A stretch of 64,000 nucleotides of DNA, taken from positions 355-64,354 of IMG/VR virus record IMGVR_UViG_3300005323_000003; one strand, given 5' to 3'. A program made the position numbers and the translations under genes. Below are positions 26,104-55,780 of the stretch, piece after piece. The notes under the pieces were generated by a model, which ran no database searches, was not told where the DNA came from, and saw only the letters and a list, made by a program, of their open reading frames with translations. This stretch comes from a virus. Lineage: Duplodnaviria > Caudoviricetes. The first letter of the stretch is position 1; each line of letters starts with the position of its first letter.

Positions 26104-27099
26104 ATGGGTAAAACAGCTAATGAAGATATTGAAATCAAAATTGAAGGCCTGGAAGATGACGACCCCAACGATCAGGACATTGAAATCGGGGAAGAAGAAG
26201 AAATAAACGACGACGATCTGGACTTTGAAGAAGTATTAAAAGGCCTTAAGAATGGCAAAAAGAAAGATCCCAGCAAAAAAACCAAAGAAGGCAAAAAAGA
26301 AAATGCAGAAGAGGAAGAGGAAACAGAGGAAATAGAGGAAGAAGAACCGGAAGAAGATGAGGAAGACAAGGAAACAGACGATAAAAAGCTGTATTCCGAA
26401 AGCGAAATAGGCGAGCTTGTCAACCAGCGCGTTATCGCTGAAGTTAACCGCATCATTCCGGAACGCTTGAATAGGGATCGAAAAGCAAATTTTGCCAAAG
26501 TGCAACGGCTTGAAAAGCTAACCGGAATGCCAATTGATCAAGTTACGCAAACCATAATCGATAACATGGTAACAGCTAAAGCCGAAGAGTTAAGCTGCAG
26601 CGAGGAAGATGCCCGTAAAATTGTTGAAAAAGACATAAAACTGGCTGACATTCAACTGGAGCGCGAGCAGGAAAAAAGCCAAAAAAACGAAGAGTCAGAG
26701 GTTATGCAGCAAATGCAATACCTGCAAGACAAGGTTGCGTATATGCAAAAGCCTAAACTTGCAAAATTCCTTAAGCAATTTGAGAAGGAAATCGACGACT
26801 TTTCTCAAAACGGCAAAATTCTTGACTATGCCACAGCTATGAACCAGATTATAGGTCAAAAAATATTGTCTGGGGATCTTCTGGAAAAAATGCAAAGCGG
26901 AGCTCAGCAAAAAGTCCTGCGCGACAACGAAGTTAAGAAAAAGAAAACACCGCCGTCAACTGCTAGCGGAGGAAACACAGCAACCGTCACCATGACCAAG
27001 GCGGAACGAGATTTTATCGCCGCTATGGGCCTGGACGAAAAAGAGGTTGCCAAAGAAAAATTAGCACTTGAAAAAAATAAACAGCGTAAAGGCCGGTAA
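26104..27099 (+). CDS. Capsid scaffolding protein
   Basis: Acidic low-complexity N-terminus, coiled coil, TMTKAERDFIAAMGL tail; precedes the capsid genes. Confidence 0.75.
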   Translation: MGKTANEDIEIKIEGLEDDDPNDQDIEIGEEEEINDDDLDFEEVLKGLKNGKKKDPSKKTKEGKKENAEEEEETEEIEEEEPEEDEEDKETDDKKLYSESEIGELVNQRVIAEVNRIIPERLNRDRKANFAKVQRLEKLTGMPIDQVTQTIIDNMVTAKAEELSCSEEDARKIVEKDIKLADIQLEREQEKSQKNEESEVMQQMQYLQDKVAYMQKPKLAKFLKQFEKEIDDFSQNGKILDYATAMNQIIGQKILSGDLLEKMQSGAQQKVLRDNEVKKKKTPPSTASGGNTATVTMTKAERDFIAAMGLDEKEVAKEKLALEKNKQRKGR

Positions 27100-27141
27100 G
27101 TTTTTAACTTCCGGTTTATTAATTTGGAGGTGAATTAAACA

Positions 27142-27858
27142 ATGGCACATACTGCAAGCAGAACCACTGTAGGGTTTGAACCTATTTATAGCAAAACCTT
27201 GAACGCTATTCCTAATGCGGTAGCGTATGAATTGACTCCGGCAGAGGCTTTTGTTCGGGGAGATATGGTAACTATTTCCGCCGGGAAATTGACCAAAGCT
27301 ACTTCTGCGACTGTAGCCAACATTGTTGGTGTGATGGCTGAATCAATTACTGCCGCTCAGAATCCTTCCGGTACCATTACTTACGGGAAAGTATACGATC
27401 ACCCGGATAATGTTTACCGCTGCACGTTTTCGGATCAGCTTGATTCAACGGCAACCGGCGGCACAACCGGAACGCTTGTTGATACCGCATTGTCCACCAG
27501 TTCCAATGACGTTTGGAATGGAGCGTATCTGTATATCTATGCAGGAACCAATGCCGGAGCAATAAGAACCGTATCGGATTACGTAGGATCGTCCGACACA
27601 CTGTATGTTGACGAACTGTTCCCGGCTGCCTGCGATACAACCACCAAGTACATTATGCTTGGACTGGCTGCAGAGGCAAACGACATTATTAATGTTGGAC
27701 TGGGAGGCATTCAGTTAAAAGATGCCAACACCATTGATGCCAACGCCGCGAGACTTAGTTCTGCGGTCAAAGTTGGCCCGCTGGTATGCTTGGCAATCAA
27801 CGGACCCGAACTAATGATGGATGTTATGATCCGTAAAACTTGCCACATCTTCGGATAA
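27142..27858 (+). CDS. Capsid cement/decoration protein
   Basis: AFVRGDMVTISAGKLTKAT...IVGV pattern; lies between scaffold and MCP. Confidence 0.6.
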   Translation: MAHTASRTTVGFEPIYSKTLNAIPNAVAYELTPAEAFVRGDMVTISAGKLTKATSATVANIVGVMAESITAAQNPSGTITYGKVYDHPDNVYRCTFSDQLDSTATGGTTGTLVDTALSTSSNDVWNGAYLYIYAGTNAGAIRTVSDYVGSSDTLYVDELFPAACDTTTKYIMLGLAAEANDIINVGLGGIQLKDANTIDANAARLSSAVKVGPLVCLAINGPELMMDVMIRKTCHIFG

Positions 27859-27888
27859 GGCAAAGCAACAACTGCACAACAACTTTTG

Positions 27889-27912
27889 AGACAGGTATAA
27901 GCCTGTCTTTTT
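27889..27912 (+). terminator. Intrinsic terminator-like hairpin
   Basis: AGACAGG-6nt-CCTGTCT followed by TTTT. Confidence 0.6.
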
Positions 27913-27935
27913 ATTTTATGGAGGTGACTTGAAAG

Positions 27936-28841
27936 ATGATGATTTCTGAAAATTGGGATGAGCTTATGCTTCCTACTCTGCGCACAATCTACAATAAGCA
28001 TTTGAAAAAGAAAAAAGATTATGTCAATGAATTGTTTACTGTTGAAAAGTCAACCAAGCAGGCTGAGTATAACCTTGGAACTGGTTCATTGGGCATGATG
28101 GACGAATGGGGCGCGTCCGGCAACCAAGTAAGCTATGAGGACGTAAACAAAGGTTACAAGGCCACATACATGCACCGTAAGTATTCCAAAGGCCTGTATA
28201 TCGAACGTGAATTAGTTGAAGACGACCAGTATGGGGAAATAAAGAAGAAAACAAACTTGCTTTCCCAGACGGTTTATTACACCAAACAGACACAGGGCGC
28301 ATCTGTGTTTAACAATGCGTTTAATTCAACTTACAAAGGCCCCGACTTGGTTGCTCTTTGTTCTGCATCTCATCCAAACAGTCCTGATGATTCAACGACT
28401 CAAAGTAACGCCGGAACAGCAGCATTATCGGCAACTTCCTTGGAAGCGGCCAGGACTGCTATGAAGGGCTGGGAAGACGATAAAGGAAATTTGTTGGCAA
28501 TTGAGCCCAATATGTTGATTGTTCCTCCGGCATTACGTAAAGCCGCATTAGTTATTGCCGATTCAACTGGCGAACCGGATGTAAGCGACAATAACATCAA
28601 TGTTTGGAAAGGATCTGTTGATGTTGTCGAATTTGACTTTTTGACAAGCACTACCGCCTGGTTCTTGGTCGATAAATCAAGAATGCAGGCGTTTTTACGC
28701 TGGTTTAATCGCCGCGTTCCGATGCTTGAAATGGACAGAGAGAACTTTAATTCCGAGGTAGGTGCTTATAAGGTTGTTGGTCGTTGGTCGTATGGCTGGG
28801 ATGATTGGTCATTCTGCTACGGATCAACTGGAACTGCTTAA
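27936..28841 (+). CDS. Major capsid protein (Mu gpT-like family, HK97 fold)
   Basis: YMHRKYSKGLYIERELVEDDQYG...VFNNAF...DLVALCSASHP...LIVPPAL...TTAWFL...RWSYGWDDW. Confidence 0.85.
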   Translation: MMISENWDELMLPTLRTIYNKHLKKKKDYVNELFTVEKSTKQAEYNLGTGSLGMMDEWGASGNQVSYEDVNKGYKATYMHRKYSKGLYIERELVEDDQYGEIKKKTNLLSQTVYYTKQTQGASVFNNAFNSTYKGPDLVALCSASHPNSPDDSTTQSNAGTAALSATSLEAARTAMKGWEDDKGNLLAIEPNMLIVPPALRKAALVIADSTGEPDVSDNNINVWKGSVDVVEFDFLTSTTAWFLVDKSRMQAFLRWFNRRVPMLEMDRENFNSEVGAYKVVGRWSYGWDDWSFCYGSTGTA

Positions 28842-28939
28842 TTAAAAATGCTGAGGCGGCTTGAAATATAGCCACCTTGATTATCTGAATATTTGGCTAT
28901 GAGGGTAAAACCCTGCCATAACGAAAGGATGGAATAGCA

Positions 28940-29572
28940 ATGGCAAGAAACAGACATTTTGGAAGTGGTTATTCTCATTTTGGAGAAGACACTTACGGCC
29001 ATGATTTAAAAGCGTTTGGTGATACTACCGCTAAGTATGTATTTTGGGATGCTTCAGCAAATACTTTTTACGTAGATGGAACTCTAAATTTAGATGGGAC
29101 TGCGCTTGCAGCAACAATAGCAGAAATTAACCGGGCGTGCGATGTTAGTGCAAGAATAGTTGATTGTACGGCATCAACATTAGCCGTGACGGTTGCGGAT
29201 CATGACGGAAAAGTAATTACGCTTAACAGAGCCGCTGGAATTGCAGTGACATTGCCTGCAGCCACCGGAAGCGGAGCGGTATTTAAATTTGTTGTAGGGA
29301 CTACTTTCACTGGTGCAGCAACGATAAAAGTTACCGGAAACGACATTATGAAAGGCACGGCTATTCTTTTTGCAGACAGTGGAGATACCACATTAGGATA
29401 TGCCACCGCTTCAGATACCGATACAATTACATTTGCTGCCGATACATCAACCGGTGGCATTGCCGGAGCAAGCGTTGAACTAATTGATATTGCTTCCGAT
29501 ACTTGGTTTGTAAAAATTGTTTCTGATGCTTCCGGTACAGAAGCTACGCCATTTTCCGCAACAGTATCTTAA
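28940..29572 (+). CDS. Virion protein (putative head decoration)
   Basis: 210 aa; HDGKVITLNRAAGIAVTLPAATGSG. Confidence 0.6.
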   Translation: MARNRHFGSGYSHFGEDTYGHDLKAFGDTTAKYVFWDASANTFYVDGTLNLDGTALAATIAEINRACDVSARIVDCTASTLAVTVADHDGKVITLNRAAGIAVTLPAATGSGAVFKFVVGTTFTGAATIKVTGNDIMKGTAILFADSGDTTLGYATASDTDTITFAADTSTGGIAGASVELIDIASDTWFVKIVSDASGTEATPFSATVS

Positions 29573-29643
29573 TTTCGTCGGGGCCTTTAATGGGCCCCTT
29601 TACTATGCAAATAACCTGTGTGTATTTAGGAGGTGTTAAATAA

Positions 29644-30000
29644 ATGAATTACATAACAGACGAATCCGGTGTAGCTATTAAATCTAGCAATCCATTCCCA
29701 GTAGCACAAACAGGATATCCGGCGTTTGATCCATTACATGTCACTATAAGCGTTGGGACTTCTGCTACCGCTGTATTATCGGCAGATGAAGATCGTACCT
29801 ATGCACTTTTTCAGAACGATTCTGATTCGACAATATATATGAATATTGCTGGAGCTGACGCAGTTTTGCACGAAGGAATAATATTGAACGCAGCCGGAGG
29901 ATTTTATGAAATGATCCTTTCTGCTGGAAATGTATCTATTAAAGCTATATCTGCCATATCAAGCGGAGCAAGTAAAAATTTGCTTGTAACGTATTCATAA
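29644..30000 (+). CDS. Small beta-sandwich virion protein
   Basis: RTYALFQNDSDSTIYM...GIILNAAGG. Confidence 0.65.
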   Translation: MNYITDESGVAIKSSNPFPVAQTGYPAFDPLHVTISVGTSATAVLSADEDRTYALFQNDSDSTIYMNIAGADAVLHEGIILNAAGGFYEMILSAGNVSIKAISAISSGASKNLLVTYS

Positions 30001-30007
30001 TCAATTC

Positions 30008-30088
30008 ATCGTCGTCTAGGGTTAGGCTGTACACCTAAACCCGAAAAGCCGTACCTGGGGCCTGACGACGATTATACAGGTACAGCCT
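30008..30088 (+). ncRNA. Putative H-type pseudoknot RNA element
   Basis: ATCGTCGTC(30008-16)/GACGACGAT(30064-72); GTACCTG(30051-57)/CAGGTAC(30077-83); AGGCT(30024-28)/AGCCT(30084-88). Confidence 0.5.
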
Positions 30089-30123
30089 TGCAGGTGAGGA
30101 CTTACTTTTGCGAGGTGTTGGAT

Positions 30124-31134
30124 ATGCCAGCAGGATACGGTAAGCCAATTGATATCAGCAATCTATCAATTAATGCTATTCCCTATAGGGACGAAAACGG
30201 AAACTTTGTTGATTCTGGTTTCTATTTAGAAAACGGTATTTTAATTGCTAAAAAAGACTTGGAAATACCACCTAATACGCTTCATTTAGGAGCAAATATA
30301 TCAATTCACGAAAATGGCGGTTTTGTTGAAATACACACAGAAACGCTAAACAAAAATTATATTTTGCCAATGGGTGAAAACGCTGATAATGGAAGTTTAA
30401 TACCTTTTTACTACAAACGAGATGCGATAGACACCAGGGCTATATTCCAAAGCGATTATTCAGAAACCATGTCAAACGTTACAACGTTAAGCATTCCCGC
30501 TGTTGCTGATTATGAAGTATCTCGAATATACGGAAAATTCGTGGATGAAGTTACCAACTTTAAGATGAAACTTGAAGTAAACGGCAATGATGTTGCTTAT
30601 TATCCGTCAAAAAATGCCTGGGAAGACAATACTGTGGATGGTTACGACATGTCTTCCGGTGAATCATATTTTGACATGGACCCGCATTTTAGTTTTCTTA
30701 CGTCGTATGCAATAACTGCTTACGTTAAGGCCGACCAGGAAATAAACATGCTGGGAAACGGCGTATTACCATGGTTAGCAATAGACAAAAAAGATATGAC
30801 AAAACAATATATCGTCATGGATGTAACAGAAACAGAAACGTTTCTCAATAATGCCAATAAATCTTTAGTTATTGGAGCAGACACTGTTTGCAATGCAACA
30901 ATAATTTACTATTTGAGTGATACGACCACGTACGAAGGCGGCGTGATCGTTCTGGTAAGCGATGGAACAACCGCCGAAATTGATGTTGAAAGGATAGGGG
31001 AGTTAGACGTAATCATTGACGACATAGATTTTAGCACTTCAATTGCAGATTCAAATTTATGTTTAGATATTGCCGCTACGGGTGACGGTTCAAAAACTGT
31101 CACATTCAAATACAAGATTAACACTATTGAGTAA
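30124..31134 (+). CDS. Virion structural protein
   Basis: RBS GAGGTG before ATG 30124; the frame is open from 30001. Confidence 0.7.
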   Translation: MPAGYGKPIDISNLSINAIPYRDENGNFVDSGFYLENGILIAKKDLEIPPNTLHLGANISIHENGGFVEIHTETLNKNYILPMGENADNGSLIPFYYKRDAIDTRAIFQSDYSETMSNVTTLSIPAVADYEVSRIYGKFVDEVTNFKMKLEVNGNDVAYYPSKNAWEDNTVDGYDMSSGESYFDMDPHFSFLTSYAITAYVKADQEINMLGNGVLPWLAIDKKDMTKQYIVMDVTETETFLNNANKSLVIGADTVCNATIIYYLSDTTTYEGGVIVLVSDGTTAEIDVERIGELDVIIDDIDFSTSIADSNLCLDIAATGDGSKTVTFKYKINTIE

Positions 31135-31217
31135 TTTCTAACCTGGGTGTTTTAATCTTGAATAGCGCGCGATATTTAAGGTTTTAACATAAATAAAAAC
31201 AAAAGGAAGTGATATTT

Positions 31218-31739
31218 GTGTCAAAAAGATATGGTTTGACAGGCCTTAATGGAACCGTTGAGCTTTCCAAAGGTGGAGCAAAGGTTAAAAACAGCAGTGG
31301 AGTTATTGAGGCCAGAAATAGCGCTGATGATGCGTATGCCATTGTCAGAGGCGCTACAGCATCAGGAGATAATGATCTAATTACAAAGGCTCAATTCGAT
31401 GCTGCCATAGGCGGCCAAGTGATGTACGTAAGTCAGGCAATTACCTTTGAAACATCGGGAACTTTTAACATCGGATCTGCGGTTGCAACAGCCAAAAGGA
31501 TCCTGAGTGTGCGGGTAATTGTAGATACTCTTTTTAATGGAACTACCCCTACGCTGGAAATTGGTATTACCGGAACTACGGATTTGCTTATGGCAACGAC
31601 TGACAATAATTTGAAGTTGTCTGATTCCTATGCTAAAGACCCGGTATATGTAACATCAGGAAGTACTCAGTTTATTGGAACCTATGTTGCTGATTCATCA
31701 TCGGCCGGTGCTGGCATCATCGTAATCGAATACGTGTAA
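31218..31739 (+). CDS. Virion fibre/decoration-like protein
   Basis: GTG 31218 with RBS AAGGAAG; GDNDLITKAQFDAA. Confidence 0.6.
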   Translation: MSKRYGLTGLNGTVELSKGGAKVKNSSGVIEARNSADDAYAIVRGATASGDNDLITKAQFDAAIGGQVMYVSQAITFETSGTFNIGSAVATAKRILSVRVIVDTLFNGTTPTLEIGITGTTDLLMATTDNNLKLSDSYAKDPVYVTSGSTQFIGTYVADSSSAGAGIIVIEYV

Positions 31740-31753
31740 AGTCATAACTAAGC

Positions 31754-31786
31754 AGCAGGGGTATTTATTGCCCCTGCTTGTTTTTT
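31754..31786 (+). terminator. Intrinsic terminator
   Basis: AGCAGGGG-9nt-CCCCTGCT then TGTTTTTT. Confidence 0.7.
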
Positions 31787-31803
31787 AAACAAGGAGGGGT
31801 GAA

Positions 31804-32031
31804 ATGAATACAAGAACAATTGCCAATACTCGCATGATTGGAAATTTACGCACAATTGGCCCTAGCCATATTGTTTTTACCGGCGAGGAAGTTCTTGACC
31901 CTGATTATGAATTGCCGCTTGATAAAGAATATACTGCACAATCAACGGTTGAGGAATTTTTCTCTGACCTATTCGGTATAACCGGAACATATGCTGATTA
32001 TTTGAGAATTGTGGAGGTTAGAATCATATGA
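31804..32031 (+). CDS. Small virion-module protein
   Basis: 75 aa; RBS AAGGAGG. Confidence 0.6.
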   Translation: MNTRTIANTRMIGNLRTIGPSHIVFTGEEVLDPDYELPLDKEYTAQSTVEEFFSDLFGITGTYADYLRIVEVRII

Positions 32032-32705
32032 GTAAATTAGATGATTGGTTCTCAGGAATTATAAAAGGATGGATGGTATCTACCGGTTCCGCTGCTCATG
32101 ATGCTGCAGCCAATGGAAACCCGGTGCAAGCTGGTGGCGTTTACCGCGCTACCGACCCAACATTATCAGACGGAGATGCAGGAAGCATTAGATTGAATTC
32201 AAAGGGTGAAGTTATTACGCAAGTGTCTGGAAGTAATACGCGACATCTTTCAACCGCAACAATAACAATTGGGACAGGTGCGGCGCATTCTGCAGGTGAT
32301 GTTGTATCAACCGACGCAGGGGCAATCCTTACCTTTGCCACAGGACTACCGGCAGGATCAAGCGGGATCATCTTAGATTCTATTGTTAAATTGGCGCAAA
32401 ACGCAGTATTTAGCGGTGGTGCAGGCTACACTTTATATTTATTTAATGCCTTGCCGACCGTTCAGGCAACAAACGCCGCTTTCGACCTTGTGGATGCAGA
32501 CCTTGCCGCATATATCGGTAAAATTACCATAAGTACATTACAAGACTTGGGTAGCAACTGCGCTGTTACTAATGTCGGACATAACCTCAGTTTTAACTTA
32601 GCGGAGGCTGATACTAATATATATGGTAAGGCTGTCTGTAATGGTGGAGAAACTACAGTGTCTGGCAAAGTTCTTTCATTCGGTCTAGGCATAGCGGCTA
32701 TATAG
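32028..32705 (+). CDS. Virion fibre-like protein
   Basis: AAHDAAANGNPVQAGG...LSDGDAGSIRLNSKGEVIT. Confidence 0.6.
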   Translation: MSKLDDWFSGIIKGWMVSTGSAAHDAAANGNPVQAGGVYRATDPTLSDGDAGSIRLNSKGEVITQVSGSNTRHLSTATITIGTGAAHSAGDVVSTDAGAILTFATGLPAGSSGIILDSIVKLAQNAVFSGGAGYTLYLFNALPTVQATNAAFDLVDADLAAYIGKITISTLQDLGSNCAVTNVGHNLSFNLAEADTNIYGKAVCNGGETTVSGKVLSFGLGIAAI

Positions 32706-32716
32706 GGGGTGTTTAT

Positions 32717-33292
32717 ATGACCCCGATAATAAATCAAGTGTTGCGGAAAAAACAGAAATTTAATTCAATAGTCGATTCATTCAACAGGGCAAACAGTAAT
32801 ACAACTCTAGGACATACTGATACAGGACAACCGTGGGAAACATTAGGCGAGGTAATTATGGGTATTAATAGTAATTTAGCATATACTGTTTCAAGTAATG
32901 GAGATACTGAAGCACTCGTTGAATCCGGTATTTCAGATTTTACTTTACAAGTTACGTTTGCCGCCAATCCTGTTGTTGCTTTATGTGTGTTTAGAGCTAA
33001 AGACCATCAAAACTTATGGAAGATTAACGCTAATAAAAGCATTAATAAATACAGGTTGATTAAACTTGATAATGGAGTATCTAGCGTTGCGGCAACTGGC
33101 TCTATTGCGATAAATAATGGCGATGTGGTGAAAGTTGTTTGTAATGGATCTGTTATAAAGGTTTATATCAACGACATACTAGATATAACTTATACAGATT
33201 CATTTAATCAAAATGAAACCAAACACGGTTTAGGCGCATTCACTACGGCAACGGATACTCGGTGGGACAATTTTAGTTTGGTGGTGATATGA
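32717..33292 (+). CDS. Lectin/ConA-like beta-sandwich virion protein
   Basis: VDSFNRANS...LGHTDTGQPW...VVKVVCNGSVIKVYIND...WDNFS. Confidence 0.6.
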   Translation: MTPIINQVLRKKQKFNSIVDSFNRANSNTTLGHTDTGQPWETLGEVIMGINSNLAYTVSSNGDTEALVESGISDFTLQVTFAANPVVALCVFRAKDHQNLWKINANKSINKYRLIKLDNGVSSVAATGSIAINNGDVVKVVCNGSVIKVYINDILDITYTDSFNQNETKHGLGAFTTATDTRWDNFSLVVI

Positions 33293-33516
33293 TGTATTAT
33301 TTAGTACCAATTATAGGTGACGGGATTTCGGAAAATCCATATCGCCCTAAGATTGATGACTACCAATGCGCATGGGCAGCAAAAACGTCAAGTAAGCAAG
33401 GTTTTTTTATAGTAGCCATAAAAGCCGAACCAGACGTTATGGAGCAGATTTTGACGGATGCAGACATACAACTATATACTCCACAACCAAATGATATACT
33501 ACCGATGGTAGTTTAA
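33289..33516 (+). CDS. Small hypothetical protein
   Basis: YYLVPIIGDGISENPYRPK. Confidence 0.6.
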   Translation: MMYYLVPIIGDGISENPYRPKIDDYQCAWAAKTSSKQGFFIVAIKAEPDVMEQILTDADIQLYTPQPNDILPMVV

Positions 33517-33607
33517 GCAGTAGTCGGAGTAATTAATGTTAAAAAATAAAGAAGGAATAAACCTCTTTGTGCGAGAATAAATAATTTATGAGACATAAGG
33601 AGGTTAT

Positions 33608-34612
33608 ATGGATAATTTAGAAGAAAAGTGGGTAGATGTTGCCAAAGGGATGGGTATTTTACTTGTTGTTTTGGGGCATGTGATCGGGTTGCCATTACCA
33701 ATTAGAAAATATATCTACTCTTTCCATATGCCTCTGTTCTTTTTTATTTCGGGTTATCTCTATAATGCAAACAAATATAAATTAGTTGCCCTAAATGATT
33801 ATATTAAGAATAGGTGGACGAGGTTAATTAATCCATATTTAGCTATGGCGCTTACTTGTTATTGTCTATTTGTTATCGTGCCATTTTTAAAAAACCATAT
33901 TATTGATATATCTTCTTACGCTAAACCACTGATTGGTATTGTGTATTCTAGGGGAAGCGCGGAATGGATGCCTAATTGTTCTCCATTATGGTTCTTAACG
34001 TGTTTATTCTTAACTCAGATTATTTTCTTTATAATATGCAAAAATAGCACTAATCTTAAAATATTTATTTGTTGTGTCCTATGCACTGTGGTTGGATTTC
34101 TAATTTACGTGTCAATTTCTTTTAAGTTGCCTTGGAATTTTGACACGGCATTAATAGCGGTATTCTTATATAGTTTAGGGTATTTTGCACGTACTTATAA
34201 CGCACTCGATATTGTTAAAAAAAATGCTGTTAAGATCATCCCGTTAATGTTAGTTATTGGAATTATAACATCACATCTAAACGGGACAGTGGATATGGAT
34301 AGCAATATGTATGGCAATATCTTCCTGTTTTATACGGGGGCAATTAGTAGCATCGTGGTGGTAATATACACGGCTGGAATTTTTTCCAAATTAAACATTT
34401 TAAGTTTCTGGGGAAAAAACACAATGCCAGTAATAGGTTTTAATTATGCAGTTATTACCTTAACCGCATACACCGGAGAGTATGCTTGGTATATTAGTTT
34501 TTTCATAAATTTAATAATTATTTGGATAATGATTTTGTTTATGGGTAGGGTTAATATTTTACACAAATTATTTTATGGATATGATTTTAAAAAAGAGAAA
34601 AAGGCAACTTAA
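33608..34612 (+). CDS. Membrane acyltransferase (Acyl_transf_3/OafA family)
   Basis: DVAKGMGILLVVLGH, YSFHMPLFFFISGYLY, LWFLTCLF, GKNTMPVIG; many hydrophobic helices. Confidence 0.9.
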   Translation: MDNLEEKWVDVAKGMGILLVVLGHVIGLPLPIRKYIYSFHMPLFFFISGYLYNANKYKLVALNDYIKNRWTRLINPYLAMALTCYCLFVIVPFLKNHIIDISSYAKPLIGIVYSRGSAEWMPNCSPLWFLTCLFLTQIIFFIICKNSTNLKIFICCVLCTVVGFLIYVSISFKLPWNFDTALIAVFLYSLGYFARTYNALDIVKKNAVKIIPLMLVIGIITSHLNGTVDMDSNMYGNIFLFYTGAISSIVVVIYTAGIFSKLNILSFWGKNTMPVIGFNYAVITLTAYTGEYAWYISFFINLIIIWIMILFMGRVNILHKLFYGYDFKKEKKAT

Positions 34613-42794: not shown

Positions 42795-45700
42795 ATGCCT
42801 ACTTTAGACGAATTGATGCAAAGTTACGGAAGAACTTCAAATAACGCAGACAACGGCGGATCACTTGACGAGTTAATGCAAAATTATGGCAGAAAACCTT
42901 CGTCCCTTGAATCTACTAAACAAAAAAATATGTTGGCTGGACTAGGAACAACAACTGCTAAAACAGCTAAAACCAATAAAATTAAATCTGCACAGCCACT
43001 TATTTCTAACCAGCAACATCAGTCCGATTTAAATAAATCGTTCGATCCAATTAATCCAATTGTACAAGAAGCCCTTGACATAAACGCTAAACGCGGCTGG
43101 AATCAAGAAGTAAATCTTGGCTATAAGCCGCAGGGCATAGCGGGTGATATTGAAACATCCAAAATATATCGCACACTAATTGGAAACCCAGCTAACGAAG
43201 GATTTAGTCTCGGAGAAATGCTTCAAGCTATATCAATGGCAACTCCTGAAACAGCAGCATTAACCAGCAGGGCAGGAATCGGAGCGGTTAACGCTACGGG
43301 CAAAATTGCAAAGCCTGTTGCTGATGCGCTTAAATCGATTGTTAAAAAAGCTCCAACGCCAGTTAAAAAAGCAGCTGGAATAGGTGCGGCTGTTACTGGT
43401 TATGAAACTGCCAAGGGCGCATCTGACAAGGATTACGTAAACCCTATAAGCGGAAACAAAACCCTTCCTTCTCAAACCGGCGCAAGTCTCCGGGAAGGAA
43501 CGGGAAAAATGCTTGAAAATATAGGTTATACAAAACCACTGAGAGACAGTAAACTTGGCAAAGACATAAGAGATACTGGGCAAAAAATATCTGAAGGATA
43601 CGAAGTAAACCGGCAACCTTTTACATGGTCATCTTTATTGGACCCGGATTGGTACGCCAATAATGCCGCCAGCAGTTTGCCGTCTACATTGGCGCTTATA
43701 CCGCTTATGTTTGCTGGATACAAGGGAACCGGCGCAATAGCCGGAAAACTTGGAGCAGGCCCATTTGCAAAAACAATTATTTCGTCTTTGGGTGGCGCTG
43801 CCATGTCAAGACCGGTTGAAAGCTCGCTTGAAGCAGCCAACACATATCAGCAAGTATTGAGTGAAACCGGCGATAAGGATCAAGCAAACAAAGCTGCTGA
43901 TATTGTTTTTAACAAAAACTTAAAACTTGCAGGATTAGACGCTGCTCAGTTAGCACTTGCTTTTGCGCCTTCGCCTGTCAGCAAATTAGGACCGGCAAAA
44001 TCTGCTGTAGCAAAATTAGTGGCGGAAACTGGGACGGAATCATTAGAAGAAGGATACCAGCAAGCCGTTCAGCAGCAAGCAAGCGGCGCAGACAAAAGAA
44101 GCATTGTACAGCAAATACTCAACCCTACTGCCGACATGAAAGAATCTATGGCAATTGGCGGAATATTTGGCGCAGGCATGGGCGGAGCCGGAGCCATAAA
44201 CGAATACATTGCAAACGTAAAAACAGAAACCATAAAAGCATTGCCTGACCAAATTATGCCACAGGTGCAGAACCGTATGAACGAACTTACCGCTTCCGGG
44301 ATTGATAAAGCAACCGCGCTTAATACTGTTTTAGATGAAGCGGCGCAAAATCCTGGTATGGCAAAAATTATATCTGAAATAGTTAAGCCAGAAGCAGAAA
44401 AAATAATTAGCAAATATTCTAACATACCTATGCAAATAAATTACATGGGGCAAGATATTCCTGAACCAAATTATAACCAACCTATTCCAGAGATTTCCCG
44501 GCAAGAAGAAACACCACAAAATAATAAGGTAACGCCACAACAAACAAAAATTACACAGCCAACCGAAGTATACAGCAAATCAACCGGAGAAAAATATAAT
44601 GTATTAGGTCAGCCAAATGAAAACGTTTTTGTAGTTACCGACCAGAACGGAAGCCGTATTATTGTCCCGGCCGGCGACGTTGAAACCAGAACTGCACCTA
44701 AAGAAGAAGTTGCACCGCAAAATACGCAGAATATCGAGCAAAACGTTCAGAACAAGGATATTCAACAGTCTGAGGTACAAAACATCAATCCGCAAGAAAT
44801 GCAGGCTTTACAGAACGAATTAGAGGCTGGCAATCAGCAGGCGGTATCTGAACAAACTGCTCCTGTTAAAAACGCAACGGAAAGCAATAAAATTGTCCCT
44901 GGAAAAGTAACCAAAGCAAAAACTGAACGTGGAACTTCTGTTAATTCTCAATATGCAGTAGTGGACGCAAATGATGTTATTGCTTCTCATTCTACTGGAT
45001 TAAAACAAAACAAAGAATACCCGCAAGAATTGCAGCCAAGAGACAGGGGCAGGATTGCGTCGGAAGATCAAGTCACAAGAATTTTGAATAATTTAGAGCC
45101 TGAATTTTTAGGTGAAAGCCCCAAGGCATCCGAAGGCGCTCCAATTGTTGGACCGGATATGGTTGTTGAAAGCGGCAACGGCAGAATCATTGCCTTAAAA
45201 CGCGGTTACGAAAATAACCACAAGAACATGGCGGCGTATAAACAATGGATAACCAACAATGCCGAAAAGTTTGGAATTAACGCTGAACAATTAAACAATA
45301 TAAAAAATCCTGTTTTAGTTAGAGTACGCCAAAGCGAGGTTAACCGGGCTAATTTTGTTAAGGAAGCAAACGAGCAATCTGTGGCTGCTATGAGTGCAAC
45401 TGAGCAAGCCATGTCTGACGGTAAAAAACTTACTTCCGGGCTTATGTCCAGGTTTTTCCCATCAGATAACGGCGACGTACTGGCGGCATCAAATCGTGGA
45501 TTTATCGGTGATTTTGTTAAGGAAGTTATTGGCCCTTCTGAACGCGGACGCTACATAACTGCTGACGGTTCAATATCTCAGGAAGGAGCAACCAGAATAA
45601 GAAATGCTGTTTTTTCCAAGGCATATGGGAACATTGAGTCAATTGAAAAACTAGCGGAAAGCACAGATGACAACATTAAAAACATAACAAATGCAATGCT

Positions 45701-48700
45701 GATAACTGCTCCTATATTTGCAAAAATGAAAACAGCTATTGAATCAGGTGAATTGTATCCGCTCGATATCTCAGGAGAAATTGCAGACGCGGCTCGTAAA
45801 CTTTCTCAATTGAAAGAAGAAGGTATGCCGGTATCTGAATATCTTGGTCAGCAAAGCATGTTCGGGGAAGAACTGGAACCGCTTGCCAAAGACATTTTAG
45901 AAGTGTTTAATAAATATAATAGAAGCAGTAAAAAGATTGCAACAATTCTGAACGGATACGTTGACAACGTTATTTCTGCCGGCAATCCTAATCAACAATC
46001 ATTGTGGGGAAGTATTAAACCGCCAACCAAGGCAGAAGCATTACAGTCTGCTTTAAATGTATTGGAGGATACAGATGGAAAAGAAACACAAGCTACGCTT
46101 TTCGGAAACGAGGCCGTTCGTGGTCAAGAGATTGGAGAAGATAACACGGGATCGGCTGGAAAAGGAACGCAAGGAATCAAATTCAAAGCCGCCAAGCAAA
46201 ACGTAAACCAAACTGAAACGCCGGAGTTCAAAAAGTGGTTTGGCGATAGCAAGGTTGTGGATGAAAACGGCAAACCGTTGGTGGTTTATCATGGTAGCCC
46301 AAATGATTTTAATGTTTTCGATATAGAAAAAAGCGATGGCATGATATGGCTTGCAAGCAATATCAAATATGCCAATAAATTTACTAATGACAAAAGTACG
46401 CCAAAAGAGTTATACGCAAGCATCAAAAATCCATTTAATGCCAGTAATTTTCGAGGCGAAAAAACGTTATCATTTTGGAAAAATAAATTAAATAATGATG
46501 GAATTGATATAAGCAAAATTGATTGGGATAAGGTTGATTTTGCTCCACAGTACGGTAAATATTATTGGTATGACTTGTTACCTCATGCTGGCAATAATTA
46601 TGCTAAAACCGGAACACTTGACGCAATCAAAAATGCTGGTTATGACGGAATCATATCTCCATCTGAAAAACAAGAAGAAATTTCTTCAGGAAAAACTTTT
46701 GTTGCATTTTTTCCTGAACAAGTAAAATCAATCAATAACCAAGGCACTTGGAACGCAAATAACCCTGACATTCGTTACAAGGTAGAAAGGGGAGCTCAAA
46801 ATGTTTATCAAAATGAGTTCTGGCGCGAGAGCAATTATCCCTCCGGAACGACAAAAGGAATTAATTCAGAAGGGATTACTGAGACAGAACAAGGACGGTA
46901 CGTTCGACTTCTTGAACAAATCCACGGAACAGAACCAGGACAAGAAGCCTACAGAATAGTACCGGACGCGCTAAAAGACGAAAAGTTTTCTGCTGCAATC
47001 AAGATAGGAAACGAGATCGGATTAAAAGTTGTTCCGTTTGCTTATGCCAATCCAGAAAATGCAGCATTTGATGGATTTATTACGCCTGAAGGAGAAATGT
47101 TTATTGATGCCAACGGAACATTCTCTCCTGAAGCTATTGCATGGCACGAGCGCGGCCACTGGGCAAATCGTAACGCAATGGGATATGGTAATCTGGAATC
47201 GCTGGTCATACAACGCCTTGAAGATACCAACCCGGATGGAATGAAAAAGCTGGTTGAATACTACCAGGATCAATACGGCGGCACATACAATAAAGATGAT
47301 ATACTGGAAGAGTTTATTTCAGATATGTTCGCTCAGGCCTTCTCGAAAGGGGAGGCTTTTTTCACGGGCGCAGAACTGGAAGAACGGCTGAACGGGTATA
47401 TCAATGAAGTGCTTGCCAAGGTAGAAGAAGTTAACCGGTTAGGAGCTCAGAAGCAAGAAAAAACTGCTGCAAAGAGAGCTTTACCCGGTACGCCTGAGTA
47501 TCAAAGAATGATTTTGAGCGGGATAGGAACGCCGGTAGCCATGAAAGCGGTCAAGCAACAAGCAAAACCTCCGGGACCGGACACAAGTAAGCATATCGTC
47601 AGCAAACTTGAAAATAAACCGCTTGCCAACCAATTGAGCAAAGAAAACCTTGGCCGCATGTGGGGCAGATTCTACGGAAGATTTGTGGACGATCTTTACA
47701 AGCTTGATAAGTTTGACAAAGTAGTGCAAAGCAACGGGCGGCAATTAAGCGCGGCTGAAAAGGCTTATATGCTGGCAATGTCAAGCAGGTCTGCAGCGGG
47801 AACAGCTAAGTTCAATCTGGAAGAAGCAATGACTGACCGGGAATTTAACAAAGTTGGAGTTTCCCTGAAAAAAGTGCTTGAAAAAATCCCGGAAGGAAAA
47901 GAGACTGAGTTTAACGATTATTTGATTTTGCGTAACTCAATTTCCTGGATGCAGCAAGGCAAGCAAGTATATTCAAAAGAATACGGTGTATCCGAATATG
48001 TGGATAACATCGCAGCGTTAAGAAAGAAACTTGACCGCACGGACCCGGAAGATACCGAGGCACTAAGCGCACTTAATAAAGAAATTGACAACCAAATGAA
48101 TATGATCATGAATAAACTGGTTAAGCCGCGAATGGATTGGTATGAGAAAAAGATCCCTGGACTAAAGGCGGCGGCAAACGACCTAGTTAACTGGCTAAGC
48201 AAGTTTACCGAAACATGGCTGGTCAAAGATAATGGCCTGCTGACTCAGGACGCTTGGGACAAATTTAGAGAATCTCACCCGTATTATGTGCCGTTTTACC
48301 GGCAACTAAACGAAGTTGAAGAAATGAACGCTGGTAAAGGCATTCGCAGCGGTTATGCGAATCAACCGTATCAAACCAAACGGGCTAAAGGATCTCAAAG
48401 ACAAATAGTTGACCCAATAGAAAGCATAATTGAACAGGTATTCCGGTACGTTAACGCATCACGCCGCAACGAAGTTATGCAGACGGTTATCCATCAATTG
48501 TTATGGCAACCGGAAGAATTGGCTGGCTTTGCAGAGATTGACTTTGATGTGTTCAAAAATGATGCGCGCGAGGCAATTCAAGACTATTTATTTAACGAGG
48601 GCGTAGAGGGTGTTATTGACCGGCTGGACGAAGTTTTCAAAAAGCAGAATATGTATAGCAGCACCAAGCCAAACGAAGTAACCGGCATCTGGTTCGGGCA

Positions 48701-50297
48701 AAAAATAACGGTCCGCATTAATGATCCTGACTTCTTTGTTGCATTGACTTCTCTAGGACCTCCCGGACAAAACTTTTTAATTGATACGTTCAGGGGCATC
48801 ACCCGAGTAATGAAAACTTTGACCACTGGCGCAAACTTGTTTTTCTCCGGCCGCAACTTAGCAAGAGATTTACCAACATCCTATATCAACGGAAAAAACA
48901 ATAATCCGTTTACCTGGGCGATTGGCATTTTAGATGCTACACGGCAAATTGCAACCGGGGATAGATTTGGCGAAGATGACTATTACGAACTGTATAGGTC
49001 AATGGGCGGCGGCATGTTTGCGTCGGCATCTGCTTCCAACCGTAATGTGCTGAAAGAAACAAAACAAGCTGTTATGCCTGGCTATTGGAGAAAAGACAAG
49101 AACGATCCTGTGTCGTATGCCTACAAAAGTTTGAGTGCTGCATTTGAAGGACTGGAACGGCTAACAAGCGCGATTGAAAGCGCGCCAAGGCTTAACGAGT
49201 TTAAGGGCGTACTTGAAGATATCAATAATAGCGACTATGCCAAAAAACTTGAAGCAAAATACGCATCCGGAGAGGTTACTGTAAATTTTAGCCGCCGGGG
49301 TGAATGGGGCTATACACTGGATGCGTTTGTGCCGTATTTGAATGCTTCAATCCAAGGTTTGGAAAGATTTTTGAGATTGTTTAAAGAAAACCCAAAAGCA
49401 GCAATAGCAAAAGGAATGCTGGCAATTACTGTACCAACAATATTGTTGTATCTAATAAATCATGATGATGACGACTGGAAAAAAGTCAGCAAGTACACCA
49501 AAGATAATTATTTCTTAATTCCTGCTCCTGGATTAACAGGAACGGACGGCAGGAAAAAGTTCATCAAAATTGCAAAGCCGCGTGAATGGGGAGTTGTATT
49601 TTCAGATTTACTGGAAAGATCACTGCAGGCTTGGGAAAATAAAGACCCAATGGCATTTAAAGATTACAAACAATCTTGGTTAAATAGTTTTGCACCTGCT
49701 TATCGCCCGATATTTTCTCCATTTTATGATGTAAGGGCAAACAAAAATTATACCGGGATGCCAATTGTGCCAGCTTATATGCAGTATCTTTCACCGGAAT
49801 TGCAGTACGATGAAACAACAAGCGCGTTGGCGTTGGAAATGGGAAAAATGTTAAAATCCTCACCCAAAAACATTGATTATATTTTACGAAGTTATTCTGG
49901 ATTCATAGGTCAGATGATCTTGCCGGCCATGTCAGAAGGCAGAGGCCAGGGAGGCGCAAGCAGAACATTTGAACCAATTAAGCGGTCATTTGTTGCCGAT
50001 CCGTTGTATTCAAATGATATAATCGATGAATTTTACAACATACGCGGCAAGCTAGATCAAGCGCAAACCGATTTTAAAGCAACAGGTAAACGCAACAAAG
50101 ATTACAACAATACGCAGCGTTTGGCTTTTAACAGAGTAGCAACCGATATAAGCAACATTAATAAACAAATACGCCAAATAAACGCAGACAAGACAATACC
50201 ATATAATCGTAAAGAAAAAATGGTTGAGCAGAAAAAAGCACAGGCAATTAGACTGGCTGAAAAAAGATTGGAGATATACAGAAAGGCAACAAAGTAA
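42795..50297 (+). CDS. Large polyvalent/ejection protein (2500 aa): ddrB-ParB-like, ART-PolyVal-like, HExxH peptidase-like and LPD38-like domains
   Basis: YAVVDANDVIASH...YPQELQPRDR...VESGNGR (~44.9-45.4 kb); FKKWFGDSKVVDENGKPLVVYHGS...GYDGII...FFPEQVKS (~46.2-46.8 kb); WHERGH (47145-47159); VNFSRRG...FVPYLNASIQG...IAKPREWG (~49.3-50.0 kb). Confidence 0.8.
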   Translation: MPTLDELMQSYGRTSNNADNGGSLDELMQNYGRKPSSLESTKQKNMLAGLGTTTAKTAKTNKIKSAQPLISNQQHQSDLNKSFDPINPIVQEALDINAKRGWNQEVNLGYKPQGIAGDIETSKIYRTLIGNPANEGFSLGEMLQAISMATPETAALTSRAGIGAVNATGKIAKPVADALKSIVKKAPTPVKKAAGIGAAVTGYETAKGASDKDYVNPISGNKTLPSQTGASLREGTGKMLENIGYTKPLRDSKLGKDIRDTGQKISEGYEVNRQPFTWSSLLDPDWYANNAASSLPSTLALIPLMFAGYKGTGAIAGKLGAGPFAKTIISSLGGAAMSRPVESSLEAANTYQQVLSETGDKDQANKAADIVFNKNLKLAGLDAAQLALAFAPSPVSKLGPAKSAVAKLVAETGTESLEEGYQQAVQQQASGADKRSIVQQILNPTADMKESMAIGGIFGAGMGGAGAINEYIANVKTETIKALPDQIMPQVQNRMNELTASGIDKATALNTVLDEAAQNPGMAKIISEIVKPEAEKIISKYSNIPMQINYMGQDIPEPNYNQPIPEISRQEETPQNNKVTPQQTKITQPTEVYSKSTGEKYNVLGQPNENVFVVTDQNGSRIIVPAGDVETRTAPKEEVAPQNTQNIEQNVQNKDIQQSEVQNINPQEMQALQNELEAGNQQAVSEQTAPVKNATESNKIVPGKVTKAKTERGTSVNSQYAVVDANDVIASHSTGLKQNKEYPQELQPRDRGRIASEDQVTRILNNLEPEFLGESPKASEGAPIVGPDMVVESGNGRIIALKRGYENNHKNMAAYKQWITNNAEKFGINAEQLNNIKNPVLVRVRQSEVNRANFVKEANEQSVAAMSATEQAMSDGKKLTSGLMSRFFPSDNGDVLAASNRGFIGDFVKEVIGPSERGRYITADGSISQEGATRIRNAVFSKAYGNIESIEKLAESTDDNIKNITNAMLITAPIFAKMKTAIESGELYPLDISGEIADAARKLSQLKEEGMPVSEYLGQQSMFGEELEPLAKDILEVFNKYNRSSKKIATILNGYVDNVISAGNPNQQSLWGSIKPPTKAEALQSALNVLEDTDGKETQATLFGNEAVRGQEIGEDNTGSAGKGTQGIKFKAAKQNVNQTETPEFKKWFGDSKVVDENGKPLVVYHGSPNDFNVFDIEKSDGMIWLASNIKYANKFTNDKSTPKELYASIKNPFNASNFRGEKTLSFWKNKLNNDGIDISKIDWDKVDFAPQYGKYYWYDLLPHAGNNYAKTGTLDAIKNAGYDGIISPSEKQEEISSGKTFVAFFPEQVKSINNQGTWNANNPDIRYKVERGAQNVYQNEFWRESNYPSGTTKGINSEGITETEQGRYVRLLEQIHGTEPGQEAYRIVPDALKDEKFSAAIKIGNEIGLKVVPFAYANPENAAFDGFITPEGEMFIDANGTFSPEAIAWHERGHWANRNAMGYGNLESLVIQRLEDTNPDGMKKLVEYYQDQYGGTYNKDDILEEFISDMFAQAFSKGEAFFTGAELEERLNGYINEVLAKVEEVNRLGAQKQEKTAAKRALPGTPEYQRMILSGIGTPVAMKAVKQQAKPPGPDTSKHIVSKLENKPLANQLSKENLGRMWGRFYGRFVDDLYKLDKFDKVVQSNGRQLSAAEKAYMLAMSSRSAAGTAKFNLEEAMTDREFNKVGVSLKKVLEKIPEGKETEFNDYLILRNSISWMQQGKQVYSKEYGVSEYVDNIAALRKKLDRTDPEDTEALSALNKEIDNQMNMIMNKLVKPRMDWYEKKIPGLKAAANDLVNWLSKFTETWLVKDNGLLTQDAWDKFRESHPYYVPFYRQLNEVEEMNAGKGIRSGYANQPYQTKRAKGSQRQIVDPIESIIEQVFRYVNASRRNEVMQTVIHQLLWQPEELAGFAEIDFDVFKNDAREAIQDYLFNEGVEGVIDRLDEVFKKQNMYSSTKPNEVTGIWFGQKITVRINDPDFFVALTSLGPPGQNFLIDTFRGITRVMKTLTTGANLFFSGRNLARDLPTSYINGKNNNPFTWAIGILDATRQIATGDRFGEDDYYELYRSMGGGMFASASASNRNVLKETKQAVMPGYWRKDKNDPVSYAYKSLSAAFEGLERLTSAIESAPRLNEFKGVLEDINNSDYAKKLEAKYASGEVTVNFSRRGEWGYTLDAFVPYLNASIQGLERFLRLFKENPKAAIAKGMLAITVPTILLYLINHDDDDWKKVSKYTKDNYFLIPAPGLTGTDGRKKFIKIAKPREWGVVFSDLLERSLQAWENKDPMAFKDYKQSWLNSFAPAYRPIFSPFYDVRANKNYTGMPIVPAYMQYLSPELQYDETTSALALEMGKMLKSSPKNIDYILRSYSGFIGQMILPAMSEGRGQGGASRTFEPIKRSFVADPLYSNDIIDEFYNIRGKLDQAQTDFKATGKRNKDYNNTQRLAFNRVATDISNINKQIRQINADKTIPYNRKEKMVEQKKAQAIRLAEKRLEIYRKATK

Positions 50298-55753: not shown

Positions 55754-55780
55754 AAATGCCCGGCAGTTAGCCGGGCATTT
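55754..55780 (-). terminator. Terminator after the repressor gene
   Basis: 11-bp stem AAATGCCCGGC/GCCGGGCATTT with a U tract on the minus strand. Confidence 0.75.

What the first reader, a model, noticed from the sequence alone, without database searches (positions are those of the whole stretch)
29998..30126. Pseudoknot 7 nt after a stop codon that separates two in-frame virion ORFs (candidate read-through or RNA switch)
Seen: ORF 29644-30000 ends in TAA, and the same frame stays open through 30001-31134 (SIHRRLGLGCTPKPEKPYLGPDDDYTGTALQ...). A 9-bp stem (30008-16/30064-72) is crossed by a second helix in which CAGGTACAGCCT (30077-88) pairs with AGGCT (30024-28) plus GTACCTG (30051-57), looping out 22 nt; a competing TTAGG/CCTAA hairpin exists. 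Established: stop + short spacer + pseudoknot drives read-through in gammaretroviruses, and phages often make extended virion proteins by recoding. Inference: a 496-aa fusion may be made, or the element is a switch or processing site. The downstream gene also has its own RBS, and UAA read-through is uncommon.
Basis: partly seen in the sequence, partly recalled or inferred. Interest (0 to 1): 0.7.

Follow-up and report, generated by a model that had tools for sequence, protein, structure and literature searches.

The report
Known int-alpA leader RNA, not read-through
The folded RNA after the stop codon is real, but it is a divergent copy of a catalogued, functionally untested phage leader RNA (Rfam int-alpA) that heads the next gene. 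It most likely governs that gene's translation and is not a signal for reading through the stop.

Summary
The 9-bp stem, the tail-to-loop pairings, the TAA stop and the open 41-codon spacer are all at the stated coordinates.

The read-through interpretation does not hold.
- Bases 30009-30086 match Rfam int-alpA (RF02996) over the whole model: 30.7 bits, below the gathering score of 35.8, E 5e-6 in this genome.
- The same junction core (C-UA-G / C-GAAAA-GC / GC-CU-G) recurs in more than 100 phage contigs, where P1, P2 and P3 covary.
- In that family the P3 loop is complementary to two downstream sites. The window has both at the usual offsets (+12 and +26).
- A -10-like hexamer most often ends 14 nt before CUAG. 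The window's CATAAT sits exactly there and contains the TAA stop.
- Family members head unrelated genes.

The two ORFs are not a unit.
- Relatives of the 118-aa gene are followed directly by other genes, and its domain is C-terminal in almost all listed relatives.
- Relatives of the 336-aa gene start at the same N-terminus and have no spacer.
- The open frame arises in about 8% of shuffles.

Most likely this is the leader of an add-on gene and controls its translation; that mechanism is inferred. This scan has noted the family before on other DNA (69 notes).

The parts
29644..30000 (+). 118-aa gene ending in an ordinary TAA stop (29998-30000). It is a conserved gene of the head module, lying between the major capsid gene and an adaptor-like gene in relatives.
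   Evidence: More than 1000 relatives at E<=0.001, with the domain C-terminal. L262 and L263 are syntenic.
29996..30001 (+). -10-like hexamer CATAAT, which contains the TAA stop. It implies a transcript start near 30008.
   Evidence: -10-like hexamers most often end 14 nt before CUAG (21 such hexamers among 84 members scanned), and the window's hexamer is at 14. No -35 is present, and the consensus scan did not call this site.
30008..30016 (+). P1, 5' strand (AUCGUCGUC)
   Evidence: P1 covaries across 84 members.
30017..30018 (+). Junction J1/2 (UA)
30019..30042 (+). P2: an extended hairpin of 8 pairs with one bulged A. Its 7-nt loop CUGUACA holds the palindrome UGUACA.
   Evidence: Loops of long-P2 members are often palindromic.
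30043..30047 (+). Junction J2/3 (GAAAA)
30048..30061 (+). P3 (GCC 30048-50 / GGC 30059-61) with loop L3 GUACCUGG (30051-58)
30062..30063 (+). Junction J3/1 (CU)
30064..30072 (+). P1, 3' strand (GACGACGAU)
30077..30083 (+). Proximal partner of L3 (CAGGUAC): a 7-bp pseudoknot with 30051-57, duplex -12.2 kcal/mol
   Evidence: It starts 12 nt after CCUG; the family mode is 12-18.
30080..30088 (+). GUACAGCCU, complementary over 9 nt to AGGCUGUAC 30024-32 (upper P2 and its loop). It overlaps the proximal site and the anti-SD strand. Seen in this copy only.
   Evidence: -16.0 kcal/mol as a duplex. No comparative support.
30091..30096 (+). Distal partner of L3 (CAGGUG): 6 pairs including one G-U, -9.5 kcal/mol. 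It is followed by the SD-like GAGGA.
   Evidence: It starts 26 nt after CCUG and 14 nt after the proximal site; family modes are 25-33 and 12-15.
30085..30116 (+). Hairpin that pairs GCCUU 30085-89 with the SD of the 336-aa gene. The SD is predicted to be almost fully paired.
   Evidence: z -1.96; P unpaired 0-0.07. Single-sequence prediction only.
30108..30143 (+). Possible 11-codon upstream ORF: TTG lies 7 nt after the SD-like GGUGAGGA, and the stop TAA is at 30141-43. It overlaps the SD and ATG of the main gene in another frame. Speculative.
   Evidence: Read. Not tested.
30124..31134 (+). 336-aa gene of unknown function with its own SD (GAGGTG 30112-17). It is the gene that the leader heads and the first gene of a block absent from relative L262.

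Best explanation
The spacer holds a divergent member of the int-alpA leader RNA family (Rfam RF02996). It is a three-way junction: P1 30008-16/30064-72, P2 30019-42, P3 30048-61. The junction strands are UA, GAAAA and CU.

It is the 5' leader of the 336-aa gene, an add-on gene placed after the conserved 118-aa head-module gene. The TAA at 29998 is an ordinary stop. It lies inside a -10-like hexamer from which the leader transcript probably starts, near 30008.

Inferred mechanism: the P3 loop GUACCUGG pairs either with a nearby site (30077-83) or with a second site (30091-96). This choice, together with the hairpin 30085-30116 that buries the Shine-Dalgarno sequence, sets how often ribosomes start at ATG 30124.

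Shown: family membership at the level of anatomy, covariation of the helices across the family, and the two-site complementarity. Inferred: the transcript start, which state is 'on', and what tips the balance.

The confidence of 0.7 is for family membership, the leader role and no read-through taken together. Membership alone I put at about 0.9, and the loop-toggling mechanism alone at about 0.45.
For: Independent model:
- Rfam int-alpA matches 30009-86 over positions 1-71 of 71.
- The only other hits from my own model R1 in the window are to a terminator-like hairpin near 55750.

Recurrence:
- A 23-base pattern of the junction core found 25 viral contigs, against roughly one or two that I estimate by chance.
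- In 20 comparator loci, 12 elements in 10 loci pass Rfam's gathering score for int-alpA.

Covariation on 84 sequences:
- 85.4% of cells are paired, against 61.7% when shuffled.
- The covariation score is 0.521, against 0.135 shuffled and 0.10-0.14 with partners slid.
- The S-S positions of P2 and P3, which my pattern left free, are always complementary.

P3 loop against its own tail:
- The best run scores 6.21, against 4.45 +/- 0.15 when tails are permuted among members.
- The second site scores 4.86, against 3.18 +/- 0.16.
- The window's sites at +12 and +26 (spacing 14) sit in the family modes.

Other points:
- The -10-like hexamer is at the modal position.
- Family members precede unrelated genes: DUF1376, methyltransferases, HNH nucleases, tail tube, portal, integrase.
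- The leader lies at the left edge of a gene block (30001-34574) that syntenic relative L262 lacks.
- The SD of the 336-aa gene is predicted to be paired.
Against: - The Rfam score is below the family's gathering score (30.7 against 35.8).
- My comparators were fished with a pattern taken from this element, so identity of the junction core is by construction.
- R1 was trained with the window as one of its rows.
- No close relative of this copy exists in the collections searched, so none of its own pairs can be tested by covariation. The only other contig examined (L005) is identical across the spacer.
- Fold energy is not exceptional (z -1.65).
- The simple sigma-70 scan calls no promoter here and there is no -35.
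- The start codon is 59 nt after CCUG, against about 38 in the family.
- The distal site is 27 nt from the ATG rather than at its SD, so the usual wiring does not apply directly.
- No experiment on any member of the family was found in the held literature.
Confidence: 0.7

Rival explanations
1. Programmed read-through of the TAA, stimulated by the downstream pseudoknot, makes a 496-aa fusion of the two ORFs.
For: The stop, a 7-nt spacer and a structured element are present, and the frame is open through 41 codons into the next ORF. In four of five homologue loci the small upstream gene and the large gene also share a frame.
Against: - The element belongs to a family that sits at transcript 5' ends ahead of unrelated genes.
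- No fused homologue appears among hits of 184-588 aa, and the homologue aligned residue by residue (P0003) begins level with the ATG.
- In L007 the two genes are out of frame.
- Relatives of the 118-aa gene are followed by unrelated genes, and its domain is C-terminal in nearly all of the 150 listed relatives.
- The downstream gene has its own SD and ATG.
- The open frame arises in 8% of shuffles.
- From general knowledge, UAA followed by U is a strong bacterial termination context.
Confidence: 0.02
2. The element is cut out of the leader and acts in trans as a small antisense RNA on copies of its own mRNA, like c4 of P1/P7 or CI of P4. This would give feedback or immunity rather than purely cis control.
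For: - Rfam files the family as an sRNA.
- The P3 loop matches two sites on the same transcript, as the loops of c4 do (the c4 comparison is from my own knowledge).
- Some members have P1 followed by a U run or a terminator (L098, L037).
- The palindromic P2 loops could mediate RNA-RNA contact.
Against: No match to the Rfam C4 family at E up to 10. No evidence of processing. In the window P1 is not followed by a U run.
Confidence: 0.12
3. The three-way junction is a sensor (riboswitch-like or protein-binding). A ligand or a host or phage factor bound at the conserved junction decides which partner the P3 loop takes.
For: The junction nucleotides are highly conserved in Rfam's consensus, while all helices vary freely. 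The family spans contigs of 33-68% G+C and many bacterial phyla. That suggests a universal partner.
Against: No ligand or protein is known. Conservation could reflect folding alone. The downstream genes share no pathway, which is unlike metabolite riboswitches.
Confidence: 0.12
4. The element is only a 5' structural cap or insulator. It protects the mRNA from 5'-end-dependent decay, or shields the ribosome-binding site of a transplanted gene from its context, and has no switching role.
For: P1 begins at the inferred transcript start. The element travels with unrelated cargo genes.
Against: This does not explain why the P3 loop covaries with two downstream sites at fixed spacing.
Confidence: 0.08

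Closest known systems
int-alpA RNA motif, Rfam RF02996. By my recollection it comes from the Weinberg et al. 2017 survey, PMC5737381. The motif is not named in that paper's main text and no supplement was held.
   Same: Full-length match to the model. Three-way junction with C-UA-G, C-GAAAA-GC and GC-CU-G. P1 of 9 pairs. P3 loop paired to the 3' tail. Phage setting.
   Different: - Scores 30.7 bits, under the gathering score of 35.8.
- P2 is extended to 8 pairs with a palindromic loop.
- Lies in the head module of a 41% G+C phage rather than between int and alpA.
- The start codon is 59 nt away rather than about 38.
- The distal loop partner lies at an SD-like sequence ahead of a possible 11-codon ORF, not at the main SD.
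c4 antisense RNA of phages P1/P7 and CI RNA of P4 (Rfam C4, RF01695); comparison from my own knowledge
   Same: A structured RNA encoded in the leader of the operon it controls. Its loops are complementary to two sites on the same transcript near a ribosome-binding site.
   Different: Different fold and sequence, with no Rfam C4 match. Processing and trans action are not shown here.
Gammaretroviral (MLV-type) gag-pol read-through pseudoknot
   Same: A stop codon, a short spacer and then a pseudoknotted structure, with an open frame beyond.
   Different: That signal is eukaryotic and uses a UAG stop; here the stop is UAA in a phage. The downstream ORF has its own SD and ATG. Homologues are never fused. 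The structure belongs to a leader family unrelated to stop codons.
Translational riboswitches that hide the SD in a pseudoknot (preQ1-II, SAM-II)
   Same: A pseudoknot between a loop and a 3' segment near the ribosome-binding site. Works-like only.
   Different: No ligand is known. There are two alternative 3' partners. No sequence or model match.

Membership tests
int-alpA RNA (Rfam RF02996) | Covariance-model score at or above the curated gathering score (35.8 bits) | tested here: not met
   30.7 bits over model positions 1-71 of 71. E 1e-4 (301 nt), 2e-3 (6 kb), 5e-6 (own genome). The long P2 is treated as an insertion.
int-alpA RNA (Rfam RF02996) | Three-way junction P1/P2/P3 with junction strands UA, GAAAA and CU and closing pairs C-G, G-C and G-C | tested here: met
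   All 17 core positions are identical to those of 83 comparators, 12 of which pass Rfam's cut-off in the 20 loci tested.
int-alpA RNA (Rfam RF02996) | Helices supported by covariation | tested here: met
   Family level only. The window's own pairs are all Watson-Crick, but no close relative exists to test them.
int-alpA RNA (Rfam RF02996) | P3 loop complementary to a tail site 12-18 nt after CCUG and to a second site 12-15 nt further on (a feature I derived here; it is not in the Rfam model) | tested here: met
   The window has 7 bp at +12 and 6 bp at +26.
int-alpA RNA (Rfam RF02996) | Sits at the start of a transcript, with a -10-like hexamer ending about 14 nt before CUAG | tested here: inconclusive
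   CATAAT is at exactly 14. There is no -35, the consensus scan makes no call, and RNA data are not available.
int-alpA RNA (Rfam RF02996) | Second loop partner at the SD, with the start codon about 38 nt after CCUG | tested here: not met
   The ATG is 59 nt after CCUG and 27 nt after the distal site.
int-alpA RNA (Rfam RF02996) | Location between integrase and alpA genes (origin of the name) | tested here: not met
   Head module. Only 1 of the 80 downstream genes scanned in viral members is an integrase.
Stop-codon read-through signal (MLV type) | The downstream ORF depends on read-through: no start of its own, and the fused product is conserved | tested here: not met
   Own SD and ATG. The aligned homologue starts level with the ATG and none is fused. 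L007 is out of frame.
Stop-codon read-through signal (MLV type) | Leaky stop context (UAG or UGA) | tested here: not met
   UAA followed by U.
Stop-codon read-through signal (MLV type) | Measured read-through or junction peptides | not testable with these tools
   Needs a reporter assay or mass spectrometry.
C4 antisense RNA (Rfam RF01695) | Match to the family model | tested here: not met
   No hit at E up to 10 in 29900-30200.

The most novel reading that the evidence does not exclude
The int-alpA-type leader is a portable, self-addressed translational governor for phage add-on genes. Its P3 loop toggles between a decoy and a site near the ribosome-binding site, possibly also acting in trans like c4 or CI RNA. 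In this phage it would be rewired: the second site sits on an SD-like sequence ahead of an 11-codon upstream ORF and on the 5' arm of a hairpin that hides the real SD, so pairing there would turn the gene on rather than off.
Probability: 0.25. Interest if true: 0.55.

Novelty: new member of a known kind. Interest (0 to 1): 0.3.

Why it matters
For this window the result corrects an attractive but wrong reading: there is no evidence of recoding between two virion genes. It adds a sub-threshold, low-G+C member in a head module to an orphan RNA family that is common in phages and has never been tested. The two-site complementarity of the P3 loop makes that family's function directly testable with simple reporter constructs. 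The family itself is already catalogued, and this scan has met it many times.

Tried and rejected
- blastn of 29000-31500 against the phage collection found no match.
- A protein-guided scan of viral contigs with the 336-aa protein found no relative.
- I treated the small proteins upstream of the 336-aa homologues as homologues of the 118-aa protein on the strength of a 20% MAFFT alignment. hhalign rejects this (E 0.29), so only their position is comparable.
- The AlphaFold2 model of the 336-aa protein was poor (mean pLDDT 42.8), so I ran no fold search. Atlas look-alikes are unnamed phage proteins, with weak structural leads only (TM below 0.4).
- Pfam and PHROGs give nothing for either ORF.
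- The pattern scan of bacterial genomes is dominated by what I take to be chance hits in high-G+C DNA. Only 26 elements in 80 loci pass model R1. Those I matched to record titles are mostly Proteobacteria, plus Acidobacteriota, Nitrospirae, Chloroflexota and Methylomirabilota, with no Firmicutes record among them.
- Hammerhead and other self-cleaving ribozymes were considered because of the three-way junction. The junction strands do not fit the hammerhead core as I recall it, and no Rfam ribozyme family matched.
- A terminator role for P1 was considered. The window has no U run after P1 and the scan makes no call there.

Full report
**Observation**

- ORF 29644-30000 ends in TAA.
- The same frame is open through 30001-30123 into ATG 30124, which has its own Shine-Dalgarno sequence (GAGGTG, 30112-17).
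- AUCGUCGUC 30008-16 pairs with GACGACGAU 30064-72.
- The tail CAGGUACAGCCU 30077-88 is complementary to GUACCUG 30051-57 and to AGGCU 30024-28.

The minimum-energy fold contains the 9-bp stem enclosing two hairpins, followed by a hairpin that buries the SD. The energy is not unusual: z -1.65, with 12 of 200 shuffles as good.

**Identity of the structure**

A permissive Rfam scan gave one hit in 27000-33000: int-alpA (RF02996) at 30009-30086 on the + strand, covering model positions 1-71 of 71. The score is 30.7 bits, against a gathering score of 35.8. In the whole 64-kb virus record the E-value is 5e-6.

The alignment shows a three-way junction:
- P1;
- the junction strand UA;
- P2, closed by G-C;
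- the junction strand GAAAA;
- P3, beginning GC;
- the junction strand CU, then back to P1.

In window coordinates the parts are P1 30008-16/30064-72; P2 30019-42 (8 pairs, one bulged A, loop CUGUACA); and P3 30048-50/30059-61 with loop GUACCUGG.

**The family is real and the window fits it**

A 23-base pattern of the junction core found 25 viral contigs, where I estimate one or two by chance. I kept 85 non-redundant elements with a credible P1. In 20 comparator loci, 12 elements in 10 loci pass Rfam's own gathering score for int-alpA. The long-P2 types fall below it, as the window does.

On a MAFFT alignment of 84 sequences, the 17 pairs of P1, P2 and P3 gave these figures:

| Measure | Observed | Shuffled | Partners slid |
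|---|---|---|---|
| Cells paired | 85.4% | 61.7% | 35-46% |
| Covariation score | 0.521 | 0.135 | 0.10-0.14 |

The positions my pattern left as S (G or C) are complementary in every sequence.

Caveats:
- The junction core is identical by construction of the pattern.
- My model R1 includes the window as a training row, so its 43.6 bits is not independent.
- R1's only other hits in the window are to a terminator-like hairpin near 55750.

**The pseudoknot**

For each member I looked for runs complementary to the P3 loop in its own 3' tail. I compared these with tails swapped among members.

| Site | Own tail | Permuted tails |
|---|---|---|
| Best run | 6.21 | 4.45 +/- 0.15 |
| Second, non-overlapping run | 4.86 | 3.18 +/- 0.16 |

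In 58 members with two sites of score 5 or more:
- the first starts 12-18 nt after CCUG;
- the second starts 25-33 nt after CCUG;
- the two lie 12-15 nt apart.

The window has CAGGUAC at +12 (7 bp) and CAGGUG at +26 (6 pairs, one G-U), 14 nt apart.

The AGGCU/AGCCU half is not a family feature. It competes with upper P2. In this copy it is part of a longer 9-nt complement, 30024-32 with 30080-88, for which no comparative test is possible.

Among members with a long P2, the loop often holds a palindrome: GUAGCUAC, UCAUGA, UAAUUA, GAUC. A palindrome of 6 nt or more occurs in 59% of them, against 11% of shuffles. The window has UGUACA. These members are partly related, so the percentage overstates the number of independent events.

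**Setting**

The position of -10-like hexamers upstream of family members peaks sharply at 14 nt before CUAG (21 such hexamers among 84 members scanned). The window's CATAAT (29996-30001) is at 14 and contains the TAA stop. This places the likely transcript start at the foot of P1. The simple promoter scan makes no call here because there is no -35.

The genes behind family members are unrelated to each other: DUF1376 (17), methyltransferases, HNH nucleases, tail tube proteins, a portal, an integrase, glycosyltransferases. Start codons lie about 38 nt after CCUG. In 58% of two-site members the called start is 0-14 nt past the second site. That is the basis for reading the second site as an SD-blocking partner.

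The window departs from this:
- Its ATG is 59 nt after CCUG and 27 nt past the second site.
- The second site is followed by an SD-like GAGGA and, 7 nt later, a TTG (30108). This opens an 11-codon frame that ends at 30143.
- The real SD is predicted to be paired with GCCUU 30085-89.

How the switch is wired here is therefore open.

**Why read-through is unlikely**

- The 336-aa protein has seven homologues of 442-448 aa, about 50% identical over the first 240 residues. In the one aligned residue by residue (P0003), residue 7 aligns with residue 4 of the window protein, so ATG 30124 is the start.
- The length range searched (184-588 aa) would have included a 495-aa fusion, and none appeared.
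- In five of their loci the gene lies 8-12 nt behind a 96-99-aa gene, and in L007 that gene is in a different frame.
- Those small proteins are not demonstrably related to the 118-aa protein (hhalign E 0.29).
- The 118-aa protein has more than 1000 relatives. In nearly all of the 150 listed, the matched ~90 residues end within a few residues of the C-terminus.
- Its closest relatives sit in syntenic head modules. There the next gene follows at 6 nt (L262) or overlaps (L263), and it is not a 336-aa homologue.
- In L262 the next genes match window ORFs 34575 and 36200. The window therefore carries an extra block, 30001-34574, whose first gene is the one with the leader.
- The open frame occurs in 8% of dinucleotide shuffles, and 46 of 85 family members have at least one open frame across the element.

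**Mechanism, as far as it can be taken**

Shown:
- A conserved, covarying three-way junction.
- A P3 loop with two covarying downstream partners.
- A position at gene starts.

Inferred:
- The element is the 5' end of its own transcript.
- The loop's choice of partner governs ribosome access.

Alternatives remain open: a trans-acting processed RNA like c4 of P1 or CI of P4 (comparison from my own knowledge), a factor-sensing junction, or a plain stabiliser. No experimental paper on the family was found. The survey paper's main text does not mention the motif, and its supplements are not held.

**Earlier notes of this scan**

Before I looked, I had already recorded the int-alpA reading. The index then showed 69 notes on this family in at least 52 genomes. 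They reach the same reading, with a decoy and an RBS site for the P3 loop. One note gave me the lead on self-complementary P2 loops, which I tested. They are AI notes and not independent evidence.

**Verdict**

The element is a new, divergent member of a known orphan leader RNA family, with an atypical expression platform.

Noticed in passing
window 30001-34574: Relative to syntenic contig L262, where the 118-aa homologue is followed at once by homologues of window ORFs 34575 and 36200, the window carries about 4.5 kb of extra genes (336, 176, 75, 225, 191, 75 and 334 aa). The leader RNA sits at the left edge of this block.
   Followed up: partly
window 29644-30000: The 118-aa protein carries a ~90-residue domain with more than 1000 relatives (148 at E<=1e-10). 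It is almost always at the extreme C-terminus of proteins of 95-420 aa, and occurs once as 9 repeats in a 1211-aa protein. It has no Pfam or PHROG family.
   Followed up: partly
L002 2359-4344; L004 2380-4347: Homologues of the 336-aa gene travel with a 96-99-aa gene as a tight pair. The pair sits in different places in different phages: after Tad2-like or Sequestin anti-defence genes, between terminase and portal, or after the capsid gene. That suggests a mobile accessory pair.
   Followed up: no
window 30108-30143: Possible 11-codon upstream ORF (TTG start, 7 nt after an SD-like GGUGAGGA) that overlaps the SD and ATG of the 336-aa gene in another frame.
   Followed up: no
window 53966-54028: Rfam tRNA hit just over its cut-off (29.8 bits against 29), while ARAGORN finds no tRNA in the window.
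   Followed up: no
window 55734-55800: A G+C-rich hairpin flanked by runs of A and U, read by my model on both strands. It looks like a bidirectional terminator between convergent genes.
   Followed up: no
window 29580-29598: Terminator-like hairpin plus a T run just after ORF 28940-29572. The 118-aa gene and the leader therefore lie downstream of a likely transcription stop.
   Followed up: no
window 42795-50297: A single 2500-aa ORF in the late region. Not examined.
   Followed up: no
L119 4107-4171 and 7804-7869; L021 3778-3843 and 8029-8093: Two low-G+C viral contigs (33% and 37%) each carry two int-alpA copies above Rfam's cut-off. The family is therefore not confined to high-G+C phages.
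   Followed up: no
L038 versus L033/L036, P2 loop: The P2 loop palindrome GUAGCUAC becomes UAAUUA in L038 through a change on both sides of its centre, which keeps the self-complementarity.
   Followed up: no
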